DNA from: Octopus vulgaris | Lineage: Eukaryota | DNA length: 64,000 nt | Direction: 5' to 3' | NCBI GenBank assembly: GCA_951406725.2 | Contig: OX597817.1 | Span: forward strand, 86,490,001-86,554,000 | Part shown: positions 51,320 through 60,090 of the stretch, one piece after another | How positions within the stretch are numbered: position 1 is the first letter of the stretch | Layout: the number at the start of each line of letters is the position of its first letter | The notes under the pieces: model-generated | Database searches by the model: none | What the model was told of the DNA's origin: nothing | Seen by the model: the letters and a program-made list of their open reading frames with translations, nothing else | Program-made: the position numbers and the translations under genes

Positions 51320-51357
<38 letters not shown>

Positions 51358-51524
51358 ATATATATGTATGTATGTATGTATGTGTGTTTGTATGTATGTA
51401 TGTATGTATGTATGTATGTATGTATGTATGTATGTATGTATGTATGTATGTATGTATGTATGTGTATTCACGCACGTATATAGAGGGAAAAGAAAGATTG
51501 AATATATTTAGACAATAAATATTC

Positions 51525-51560
<36 letters not shown>

Positions 51561-51702
51561 GAATATTTATTGTCTAAATATATTCAATCTTTCTTTCCCT
51601 CTATATACGTGCGTGAATACACATACATACATACATACATACATACATACATACATACATACATACATACATACATACATACATACATACATACATGCAT
51701 AC

Positions 51703-51745
<43 letters not shown>
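51320..51745. repeat. Palindrome centred on a (TA)n tract
   Basis: tgtgtattcacgcacgtatatagaggg..aatattcatg (TA)n catgaatatt..ccctctatatacgtgcgtgaatacaca, flanked by (TATG)n and (CATA)n. Confidence 0.9.
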
Positions 51746-52533: not shown

Positions 52534-53034
52534 TATATATATGCATATTTGCATACATATATGTACATACATATATATTTTTTATTCTTTTTTTCTTTTA
52601 CTTGTTTCAGTCATTCGACTGCAACCATGCTGGAGCACCGCCTTTTGTTGAGCAAATCGCCCCCAGGACTTATTCTTTGTAAGCCTAGTACTTATTCTCT
52701 TTTGCAGAACCGCTAGGTTACGGGGACGTAAACACACCAGCATCGGTTGTCAAACGATGTTGGGGAACAAACAGACACACAAACATATATATATATATAT
52801 ATATAAGGGATATTAGCCAACCGAATATGGCTAGGGACAGAGATATAGACAGTGACTGCTCCGTAATATAAGGGATATTAGCCAACCGAATATGGCTAGG
52901 GACAGGGCAGGGTGGTGGGGGTGTCACTATTGCATTTAGCCCCAGGCGAACATCAACGTCACCAGATAGGCCTGACGCCATCACGGCGTCCTCTATCTTG
53001 CAAAGGGAGATCATCCACCAAGAAGCAGATACCA

Positions 53035-53080
53035 CACACGGACCTAGGTTTCAAGGTGTATTGCCTATTATCAACGTGTG
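53035..53080 (-). ncRNA. Type I hammerhead ribozyme, U3-A8 variant (inverted copy)
   Basis: Reverse complement of 53488-53533. Confidence 0.75.
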
Positions 53081-53487
53081 GTAGGCATCGCTTCTCGATG
53101 AACGACCAACTGTGCAAGATATATATAAGGATTTTCAAGTAAATACATTTACTGATTTCGAAACCTAGGTCCGTGTGTGGTATCTGCTTCTTGGTGGATG
53201 ATCTCATTTTGCAAGATAGAGGACGCCGTGATGGCGTCAGGCCTATCTGGTGACGTTGATGTTCGCCTGGGGCTAAATGCAACAGTGACACCCCCACCAC
53301 CCTGCCCTGTCCCTAGCCATATTCGGTTGGCTAATATCCCTTAAATTACGGAGCAGTCACTGTCTATATCTCATTTAGAGAATTATTATTGCTGTCGAAC
53401 AGATTTTCGAAATCAGTAAATGTATTTACTTGAAAATCCTTATATATATCTTGCACAGTTGGTCGTTCATCGAGAAGCGATGCCTAC

Positions 53488-53533
53488 CACACGTTGATAA
53501 TAGGCAATACACCTTGAAACCTAGGTCCGTGTG
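53488..53533 (+). ncRNA. Type I hammerhead ribozyme, U3-A8 variant
   Basis: cacacg TTGATAA t-agg-caataca-cct-t GAAAC ctag GTC cgtgtg: stem I cacacg/cgtgtg, stem II agg/cct, stem III AC/GT with a palindromic loop; predicted cut after 53527. Confidence 0.8.
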
Positions 53534-53843
53534 TGGTATCTGCTTCTTGGTGGATGATCTCCCTTTGCAAGATAGAGGACGCCGTGATGGCGTCAGGCCT
53601 ATCTGGTGACGTTGATGTTCGCCTGGGGTTAAATGCAACAGTGACACCCCCACCAACCTGCCCTGTCCCTAGCCATATTCGGTTGGCTAATATCCCTTAT
53701 ATTACGGAGCAGTCACTGTCTATATCTCATTTAGAGAATTATTATTGCTGTCGAACAGATTTTCGAAATCAGTAAATGTATTTACTTGAAAATCCTTATA
53801 TATATCTTGCACAGTTGGTCGTTCATCGAGAAGCGATGCCTAC

Positions 53844-53889
53844 CACACGTTGATAATAGGCAATACACCTTGAAACCTAGGTCCGTGTG
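53844..53889 (+). ncRNA. Type I hammerhead ribozyme, U3-A8 variant (next tandem copy)
   Basis: Identical to 53488-53533, 356 bp downstream; predicted cut after 53883. Confidence 0.8.
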
Positions 53890-54102
53890 TGGTATCTGCT
53901 TCTTGGTGGATGATCTCCCTTTGCAAGATAGAGGACGCCGTGATGGCGTCAGGCCTATCTGGTGACGTTGATGTTCGCCTGGGGCTAAATGCAACAGTGA
54001 CACCCCCACCACCCTGCCCTGTCCCTAGCCATATTCGGTTGGCTAATATCCCTTATATTACGGAGCAGTCACTGTCTATATCTCATTTAGAGAATTATTA
54101 TT

Positions 54103-54150
<48 letters not shown>

Positions 54151-54151
<1 letters not shown>

Positions 54152-54445
54152 CGAGATCATCAGAAAGAAGTCCGGCGTGAGAGATGTCATCGCAGAGTAT
54201 ACACGCAGCAAGTATAAATGGGCTGGACACGTCGTCCGGCTCACCGATAATCGGTGGACCCACGCAGTTGTCGAGTGGTACCCGCGCGAGCGGAAAAGAC
54301 CACCCGGAAGACCTCCATGACGGTGGAGTTACGATTTCAGGAGGACGATTGGGATCACGTGGATGAGAAAGGCGCGATCCAGGGAGGAGTGGACAGCGTG
54401 TCAAATGGACGCCTGACGGACTGGTCGGTCAAGCTGATCAAGGTG

Positions 54446-56095: not shown

Positions 56096-56627
56096 CTGCA
56101 CACATGTAAGAATATAAGTGCAAAACAAAGTGGACAAATAGTTCTCGAATACCAAAGGTAGAGTAAGATACTCATTGAAGCTTAAGAGTTGAGGTTAAAA
56201 AAATTTTTTTCTACCTTTGGCACAAGGCCCGAAATTTGGGTGGGGGTAGGGGCCAGTCAATTACATCGACCCCAGTACACAACTGGTACTAAATTTATCG
56301 ACCCCGAAAGGATGAAAGGCAAAGTCGACCTCGGCGGATTTAGAACTCAGAACGTTGCGGAAGACGAAATACCTATTTCTTTACTACCCACAAGAGGGTA
56401 AACACAGAGAGGACAAACAAGGACAGACAAACGGATTAAGTCGATTACATCGACCACAGTGCGAAACTGGTACGTATTTATCGACCCCGAAAGGATAAAA
56501 GGCAAAGTCGACCTCGGCTGAATTTGAACTCAGAACGTAACGGCAGACGAAATACTGCTACGCATTTCGCCCGGCGTGCTAACGTTTCTGCCAGCTCGCT
56601 GCCTTTTGAGGTGAAAAATATTGAAAA

Positions 56628-59279: not shown

Positions 59280-60090
59280 CCGCTAAGCATTTCGCCTGGC
59301 GTGCTAACGTTTCTTATCCCCACAAGAGGATAAACATAAAGGGGACAAATAAGGACAGACAAAACTACTAAGGTGATTACATCGACCTCGGTGCGTAACT
59401 GGTACTTATTTAATCGACCCCGAAAGTATGAAAGGCAAAGTCGACCTCGGCGGAGTTAGAACTCAGAACGCAGCGGCGGACGAAATACCTATTTCTTTAC
59501 TACCCAAAAGGGACTAAACACAGAGGGGACAAACAAGGACAGACAAACGGATTAAGTCGATTGTATCGACCTCAGTGCGTAACTGGTACTTATTTAATCG
59601 ACCCCGAAAGGATGAAAGGCAAAGTCGACCTCGGCGGAGTTAGAACTCAGAACGCAGCGGCGGACGAAATACCTATTTCTTTACTACCCAAAAGGGACTA
59701 AACACAGAGGGGACAAACAAGGACAGACAAACGGATTAAGTCGATTACATCGACCTTAGTGCGTAACTGGTACTTATTTAATCGACCCCGAAAGGATGAA
59801 AGGCAAAGTCGACCTCGGCGGAATTAGAACTCAGAACGCAGCGGCGGACGAAATACCTATTTCTTTACTACCCACAAGGGGCTAAACACAGAGGGGACAA
59901 ACAAGGACAGACAAACGGATTAAGTCGATTATATCGACCTCAGTGCGTAACTGGTACTTATTTAATCGACCCCGAAAGGATGAAAGGCAAAGTCGACCTC
60001 GGCGGAATTTGAACTCAGAACGTAACGGCAGACGAAATACCGCTACGCATTTCGCCCGGCGTGCTAACGTTTCTGCCAGTTCGCCGCCTT
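59280..60090 (-). mobile_element. Family B SINE with a tandemly iterated 184-bp body (about 4 units)
   Basis: Junction cctatttctttac at 59488, 59672 and 59856; tRNA-like head at about 60040-60090. Confidence 0.88.

What the first reader, a model, noticed from the sequence alone, without database searches (positions are those of the whole stretch)
53404..53720. The 356-nt unit folds as a strand-specific, G-U-rich branched RNA
Seen: hammerhead stem I extends for roughly 40 bp with small loops: gatgcc/ggtatc, cgagaagc/gcttcttg, gtcgttcat/gtggatgat, tatcttgca/tgcaagata (53447-53574). Many pairs are G-U on the plus strand, which would be A-C mismatches on the minus strand. Further hairpins: gacgcc/ggcgtc, caggc/gcctg, tagcca/tggcta, acagtgac/gtcactgt and gattttcg..agtaaat/atttact..tgaaaatc. 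Inference: selection acts on RNA structure of the plus strand, as in viroid-like circular RNAs, and the internal loop in stem I could contact loop II.
Basis: partly seen in the sequence, partly recalled or inferred. Interest (0 to 1): 0.75.

Follow-up and report, generated by a model that had tools for sequence, protein, structure and literature searches.

The report
Structured hammerhead retrozyme spread by Penelope
This 356-base repeat is one of thousands of copies of a small jumping element with no conserved protein gene, whose RNA is predicted to fold into a branched shape that related families have kept, with a likely self-cutting ribozyme at one end and, at the other, two fixed points from which a Penelope-type enzyme likely copies it back into the genome; it is a known kind of element and no richer in G-U pairs than shuffled sequence.

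Summary
The fold is real; "G-U-rich" is not. The circular unit folds far better than shuffles (z -5.0; minus strand -2.5). Relatives 55-98% identical keep the structure through compensatory changes (30 of 91 pairs), and the plus strand is moderately favoured. G-U pairs (12%) are no commoner than in shuffles (14%), and one named hairpin (caggc/gcctg) is not conserved. The unit is a metazoan non-LTR retrozyme with a type I hammerhead (U3-A8 core, U.U at the base of helix II, self-complementary helix III in 291 of 302 cores), not a viroid-like replicon. Insertions carry the Penelope footprint: (TA)n target, inverted truncated arm, and two fixed 3' ends 45 nt apart, one per arm in 25 of 27 two-armed insertions. 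An intact Penelope-like element with the same footprint lies in the genome but shares no clear sequence with the unit. Cleavage and circles are untested. The scan found this element type before on other DNA of this genome.

The parts
52801..54105 (.). Whole insertion (two arms back to back) in a (TA)n run; boundaries blur by a few bases into the TA flanks
52801..53163 (-). Inverted, 5'-truncated arm: unit positions 234-356, 1-201, then a re-primed piece 136-175 that ends at the short 3' end (hence the 40-nt duplication 52801-52840 / 52866-52905)
53160..54105 (+). Forward arm: 2.6 tandem 356-nt units (345-356, two full units, 1-222), ending at the long 3' end; 53160-53163 is shared with the inverted arm (microhomology)
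53528..53883 (+). One monomer, from predicted cleavage site to predicted cleavage site (44% GC)
53488..53533 (+). Type I hammerhead: helix I 53488-93/53528-33, U3-A8 core from 53494, helix II 53502-04/53512-14 on a U.U pair, loop II 53505-11, palindromic helix III 53519-26, predicted cut after C53527
   Evidence: PMC3088659 section 8
53844..53889 (+). Second complete hammerhead, predicted cut after 53883
53035..53080 (-). Third complete hammerhead, in the inverted arm (same polarity as the unit)
53447..53574 (+). Rod extending helix I: 39 pairs, 6 of them G-U; bulge 53485-87 / 53534 is the candidate partner of loop II
53578..53630 (+). Hairpin 53578-53594 and two-helix arm 53596-53630 (GGCCT/GGG(C)T, GGTGA/TCGCC)
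53638..53719 (+). Helix 53638-45/53712-19 enclosing hairpin 53670-89 and the short 3' end (unit position 177 = 53704)
53402..53438 (+). Stem-loop gattttc/gaaaatc with inner agtaaa/tttact, supported by covariation, not by single-sequence folding (repeated at 53758-53794)
54061..54105 (+). 45-nt 'tail' (unit 178-222) with the small CTC-N5-GAG hairpin (54082-54092) and an AT-rich end at the long 3' end

Best explanation
The unit is a non-LTR retrozyme: a repeat with no conserved reading frame, whose plus-strand RNA is predicted to fold into a 39-bp rod capped by a type I hammerhead and a branched domain, likely cuts itself out of tandem transcripts, would be closed into a circle by a host ligase, and is likely copied into TA microsatellites by a Penelope-like enzyme supplied in trans. 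Shown: tandem units, hammerhead motif, conserved fold, thousands of dispersed copies, two fixed 3' ends, inverted arms, TA targets, an intact Penelope-like element with the same footprint. Inferred: (1) in a tandem transcript two hammerheads pair through their self-complementary helix III and cut as a dimer, while a lone monomer or circle with a 2-bp helix III cuts poorly and so lasts; (2) the rod pairs the monomer's own 5' end with its 3' part and holds the cut ends together for ligation; (3) the enzyme nicks both DNA strands and primes at unit positions 177 and 222, AT-rich stretches at the pole opposite the ribozyme, so that one template gives two back-to-back arms. G-U pairs are tolerated wobble states of this plus-strand structure, not a special enrichment.
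For: Fold vs shuffles. Covariation on a sequence-only alignment of 22 monomers: 89.5% of 1986 cells paired vs 80.9+/-0.4, covariation 0.287 vs 0.148, 0 of 500 shuffles, slid controls 37-48%; RNAalifold 25 of 73 pairs with two-sided change; plus consensus -44.0/73 pairs vs minus -27.4/53 pairs. Core pattern 556 matches, control 0; unit 32-mer 3084, control 0. Position 3/8 occurs as C-G, U.G and U-A; U3-A8 and U10.1.U11.1 are described natural or active variants (PMC3088659 section 8). Helix III self-complementary in 291 of 302 cores, as five different palindromes; double hammerhead -180.0 vs two single ones -171.0 kcal/mol. 70 of 72 arm ends at the two sites, 67 of 72 next to TA runs, 25 of 27 two-armed insertions with one of each, as for Penelope tails and two-strand, two-site priming in vitro (PMC11167929). 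A 765-aa RT + GIY-YIG ORF whose copies end at two points about 40 nt apart in TA runs. All four window copies share T at unit position 14, seen in 4 of 66 family-A rows; 7 of 11 insertion-wide private variants span both arms: one template per insertion.
Against: Rfam finds no hammerhead, even at E 10, nor in the canonical-core family. The unconstrained fold misfolds the core (-183.4 vs -180.0 for the dimer; -112.4 vs -106.2 for the circle). Activity is untested; 8 of 9 predicted frog retrozyme dimers did not cleave (10.64898/2026.07.22.740005). No homology between the unit and the one Penelope family examined, beyond a weak match of hammerhead cores. The minus strand also folds better than shuffles; the G-U over A-C excess is weak in family E (6:4). 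'Further pair types' did not exceed shuffles (65 vs 69), and related rows inflate the other measures. Most arms run through the cleavage site (82 of 93), which a circle or an uncut multimer explain equally.
Confidence: 0.8

Rival explanations
1. A non-autonomous Penelope derivative copied from linear, uncut tandem transcripts; the hammerhead and rod serve protein binding or 5' processing and no circle is needed.
For: Hammerhead mutants do not affect insertion by a Penelope protein in vitro, where unprocessed RNA is the main template (PMC11167929). Arms cross the cleavage site freely. No circle was shown here.
Against: Insertions of up to about 12 units with private variants shared by all copies on both arms (L245) suit one small template read repeatedly; the ribozyme has canonical helix I, bulge and loop II rather than the minimal form in the Penelope repeat; circles are shown for mussel, coral and axolotl retrozymes (PMC7229834).
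Confidence: 0.3
2. A viroid-like circular RNA that replicates RNA to RNA and is only occasionally reverse-transcribed into the genome.
For: Size, rod-plus-branch fold and hammerhead; cloned mussel circles did not match genome entries (PMC7229834).
Against: Hammerhead on one polarity only; the minus-strand consensus is weaker; thousands of genomic copies in subfamilies with fixed ends.
Confidence: 0.04
3. The G-U pairs come from A-to-I editing of the double-stranded RNA, fixed by reverse transcription, rather than from tolerated wobble.
For: Many shared changes are A/G opposite U; A>G is 3 of 11 insertion-wide variants vs 10 of 200 single-copy ones.
Against: Counts are small and unpolarised; single-copy A>G vs T>C is 33:24 and 10:17; C/U changes opposite G and two-sided changes also occur. 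Editing would add to, not replace, selection on structure.
Confidence: 0.12
4. A satellite or DNA-level inverted repeat; the fold is a by-product.
For: Watson-Crick helices read on both strands, and the minus strand also beats shuffles.
Against: Dispersed short arrays with fixed ends, conserved catalytic core and conserved unpaired nucleotides, compensatory changes.
Confidence: 0.02

Closest known systems
Metazoan non-LTR retrozymes (Cervera and de la Pena 2020, PMC7229834: mussel 350-390 bp; axolotl Rtz_353 with HHR_Amex2)
   Same: Tandem non-coding units of about 350 nt, under 50% GC, type I hammerhead, highly paired fold; like HHR_Amex2, a 2-bp helix III with tetraloop and a U.U pair at the base of helix II.
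   Different: U3-A8 core in this subfamily; short dispersed arrays with inverted arms and two fixed ends, which the parts of that paper that I read do not describe; cleavage and circles not shown here.
Penelope-like elements and their pLTRs (10.1101/2021.04.23.441226; PMC11167929; PMC4209133; 10.64898/2026.07.22.740005)
   Same: Partial tandems, inverted 5'-truncated copy, tail on one end only, (TA)n target, hammerhead; U3-A8 is known from Schistosoma Cercyon elements.
   Different: No RT or endonuclease ORF; canonical, not minimal, hammerhead; 45-nt tail; no pLTR homology to the intact family examined, unlike the frog retrozymes.
Hammerhead viroids and viroid-like circular RNAs (features recalled)
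   Same: Size, branched and rod-like pairing, hammerhead that can act as a dimer.
   Different: One polarity only; encoded and spread as genomic DNA.

Membership tests
Metazoan non-LTR retrozyme | Short tandem units of 150-450 bp, under 50% GC | tested here: met
   356 nt x 2.6, 98% matches; 158 of 356 G+C
Metazoan non-LTR retrozyme | Type I hammerhead in each unit | tested here: met
   Motif and helices, with variants described in PMC3088659; Rfam does not detect it
Metazoan non-LTR retrozyme | No protein coding | tested here: met
   Only short ORFs (48-98 aa, one of 136 aa by running into the flank); a 1-nt deletion inside the 73-aa frame in 46 of 73 family-A pieces
Metazoan non-LTR retrozyme | Highly self-paired monomer | tested here: met
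Metazoan non-LTR retrozyme | No LTR, primer-binding site or polypurine tract | not tested
   The layout shows no LTR pair; no PBS search was run
Metazoan non-LTR retrozyme | Self-cleavage in vitro | not testable with these tools
   Needs transcription assay
Metazoan non-LTR retrozyme | Expressed as circular and linear monomers | not testable with these tools
   Only contigs of runs not on record as RNA were offered
Penelope-like element (autonomous) | RT plus GIY-YIG ORF | tested here: not met
   None in the element; present in a separate family
Penelope-mobilised element | Partial tandems, inverted 5'-truncated copy, tail on one end, TA target | tested here: met
Penelope-mobilised element | Sequence shared with the pLTR of an autonomous partner | tested here: inconclusive
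   No significant match to 30 GIY-YIG loci or one pLTR; only 150 of 6136 candidates were scored; a short hairpin-plus-TTATT likeness in the tails
Hammerhead viroid / viroid-like RNA | Ribozymes in both polarities | tested here: not met
   Motif scan finds hammerheads only in the unit's sense; other ribozyme classes only through Rfam
Hammerhead viroid / viroid-like RNA | No DNA counterpart | tested here: not met
   3084 genomic matches

The most novel reading that the evidence does not exclude
The branched domain is a conserved landing platform for the Penelope enzyme: over 45% sequence divergence it keeps two priming sites in register, the outer one behind a small CTC-loop-GAG hairpin and TTATT run that mimics the tail of the genome's intact Penelope element, and one dimeric enzyme primes both cut DNA strands on a single RNA circle and runs round it. 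The family set also records a stepwise C3-G8, U3.G8, U3-A8 change of a catalytic tertiary pair and co-varying helix III palindromes that would restrict cutting to dimers.
Probability: 0.3. Interest if true: 0.68.

Novelty: new member of a known kind. Interest (0 to 1): 0.42.

Why it matters
Retrozyme folds in the papers I read are energy predictions of single sequences. Here several families 55-98% identical give a comparative model of the whole monomer and tie its pole opposite the ribozyme to two fixed priming sites. With an intact Penelope-like element in the same genome and a published in vitro assay, the proposed route (circle, Penelope enzyme, tandem insertion) becomes directly testable. 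The class itself is known.

Tried and rejected
Rfam: nothing at gathering or E 10 for the hammerhead. A loose core pattern had its gap set one base too long, missed this element and gave chance-level counts (141 vs 137 control); its 30 loci were left out of later counts. Expression: no RNA holder listed. Contigs of runs only guessed to be RNA cover the unit, bridge the cleavage site, and include 390-391-nt contigs (about one unit plus 30) in X2, X3 and X7; a circle, a tandem transcript or DNA would all give this, so it is not used as evidence. Fossil evidence of cleavage: 5 arms in the 45 insertions start at unit positions 1-5; in family E 9 of 11 stops within 55 nt lie between -9 and +7 but only 3 within -2 to +2: enriched near the ribozyme, but stalling cannot be told from run-off at a cut end, and the window was chosen after the fact. 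A-to-I editing: too few events. Partner by homology: none found. caggc/gcctg rejected. One monomer with a deletion (L143) was dropped before alignment A1. Literature: 'retrozyme'+'octopus' and 'hammerhead ribozyme'+'cephalopod' listed no paper describing this family; the host group is my guess from repeat content, unchecked. The supplement of PMC7229834 could not be read and bioRxiv supplements are closed; either could list such a family.

Full report
Setting. The finding lies in a 1.3-kb insertion (52801-54105) between TA runs: an inverted, truncated arm (52801-53163) and 2.6 tandem units of 356 nt (53160-54105). The genome is 2.8 Gb. Rfam reports no family at its thresholds and no hammerhead at E 10.

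Check of the fold. As a circle the unit folds at -112.4 kcal/mol (z -5.0, 0 of 100 shuffles); the minus strand at -95.5 (z -2.5, 1 of 100). The strand gap exceeds that of 100 shuffles. The rod 53447-53574 is well determined. It has 6 G-U in 39 pairs, and the whole fold 14 in 116, below the shuffle mean of 14.2%; 'G-U-rich' fails.

Relatives. A core pattern gave 556 matches and a unit 32-mer 3084, both with 0 control matches; a family-E 28-mer gave 782. I aligned 22 contiguous monomers, picked by hand as representatives from about 125 apparently complete copies plus family-D copies seen; they are 55-98% identical. RNAalifold gave 73 pairs, 25 with two-sided changes. A 91-pair structure taken from the window copy is paired in 89.5% of 1986 cells against 80.9% in shuffles and 37-48% when slid; 30 pairs change on both sides; the count of further pair types does not exceed shuffles. 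Rows are related, so these are not probabilities, and the distal rod is out of register for the most distant families in this sequence-only alignment; folded singly, each of seven representatives forms the rod.

Strand. Plus has the lower energy in 22 of 22 monomers and the stronger z in 5 of 6 further ones tested, but minus is often significant too. Consensus folding: plus -44.0 with 73 pairs, minus -27.4 with 53. In 182 full copies, at pairs whose common state is Watson-Crick, variants seen in 3 or more loci are G-U 15, A-C 5 (p 0.04), single-copy variants 41 and 39; shared variants keep pairing 21 to 14, single ones 43 to 90 (p 0.003). Overlapping locus ids may inflate 'shared' slightly, and family E alone is 6:4. 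Selection on plus-strand structure is supported, moderately.

Ribozyme. Helix I has 6 bp, helix II 3 bp on U.U, helix III 2 bp with a 4-nt loop, and the cut is predicted after GUC. Canonical animal type I hammerheads have 6-bp helix I, a short palindromic helix III and act as dimers (PMC4209133, part 1 of 4 read). U3-A8 and U10.1.U11.1 are described variants (PMC3088659, passages and section 8). Among 302 cores from the loci fetched (a biased sample), position 3/8 is U-A, U.G or C-G, and helix III is self-complementary in 291 (253 Watson-Crick, five palindromes; 38 with wobble; the search fixed the outer two pairs). The double hammerhead is 9 kcal/mol better than two single ones, but the free fold is 3.4 better still.

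Insertion footprint. In all 45 insertions among the first 100 places, 37 arm ends lie at unit positions 168-180, 33 at 214-226 and 2 elsewhere; 67 of 72 abut TA runs; 25 of 27 two-armed insertions have one end of each kind. Family E ends at the equivalent points. Inverted truncated copies, a tail on one end and TA targets are Penelope traits (10.1101/2021.04.23.441226, passages), and a Penelope protein nicks and extends both strands and primes at two internal sites that bound the tail (PMC11167929, parts 1-3 of 4). Both ends fall in the branched domain, after small hairpins, partly unpaired by prediction. The window's four copies share a rare base, and 7 of 11 insertion-wide variants in 86 insertions span both arms.

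Partner. A GIY-YIG search found many copies of a 781-codon frame: 765 aa from ATG, GIY-YIG E 4e-7, RVT_1 E 1e-6 just under its cut-off, with a CxxxxCxxC linker, a minimal U3-A8 hammerhead and two ends about 40 nt apart in TA runs. It does not align with the unit better than shuffles. Its tail carries a CTCG-loop-CGAG hairpin and TTATT run like the unit's CTC-N5-GAG hairpin; that likeness is short and has no statistic.

Comparison. The element matches metazoan non-LTR retrozymes (PMC7229834, parts 2-4 of 6; supplement unreadable), proposed to be non-autonomous Penelope derivatives (10.64898/2026.07.22.740005, parts 1-3 of 5). It is not an autonomous Penelope element and not a viroid. Earlier notes of this scan reached the same class on other DNA of the genome; I tested their two-end claim (holds) and their editing claim (inconclusive).

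Verdict. Observation partly confirmed, interpretation partly supported; a new member of a known kind. Cleavage, circles and the identity of the partner remain untested.

Noticed in passing
L202-L209 (e.g. L202:1793-4090 +): Young Penelope-like family with intact 765-aa RT + GIY-YIG frames, an upstream overlapping frame of up to about 480 codons, a minimal U3-A8 hammerhead and TA-run insertions.
   Followed up: partly
L214:4430-5000 +: A more distant hammerhead repeat (U3-A8 core, same UAC bulge, CTC-loop-GAG hairpin near its end), inserted in TA runs next to a Penelope copy.
   Followed up: partly
L245, L248, L254, L258 and others: The commonest core in the unbiased sample has C at position 4 (CCGAUGA/CCGACGA), in arrays of up to about 12 units; the window's U3-A8 subfamily is a minority.
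   Followed up: partly
L133-L135, L137, L139: A subfamily with a GUA instead of GUC cleavage triplet.
   Followed up: no
window 51340-51720: A near-perfect inverted duplication (about 60 unique bases plus TATG runs) around a TA run; it resembles a two-armed insertion or a fold-back.
   Followed up: no
window 54151-54426: A fragment between TA runs whose frame reads like the C-terminal end of an RTE-type LINE protein (label recalled).
   Followed up: no
window 59319-60041 and about 56260-56600: A 184-bp unit in 3.9 tandem copies, similar to a two-copy dispersed repeat near 56300-56600.
   Followed up: no
window 52801-52905; L003:1980-2052: Re-priming scars: a short piece from unit positions 136/137-175 and an arm starting at position 234, in a palindromic stretch, occur both in the window and in the close relative L003.
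   Followed up: partly
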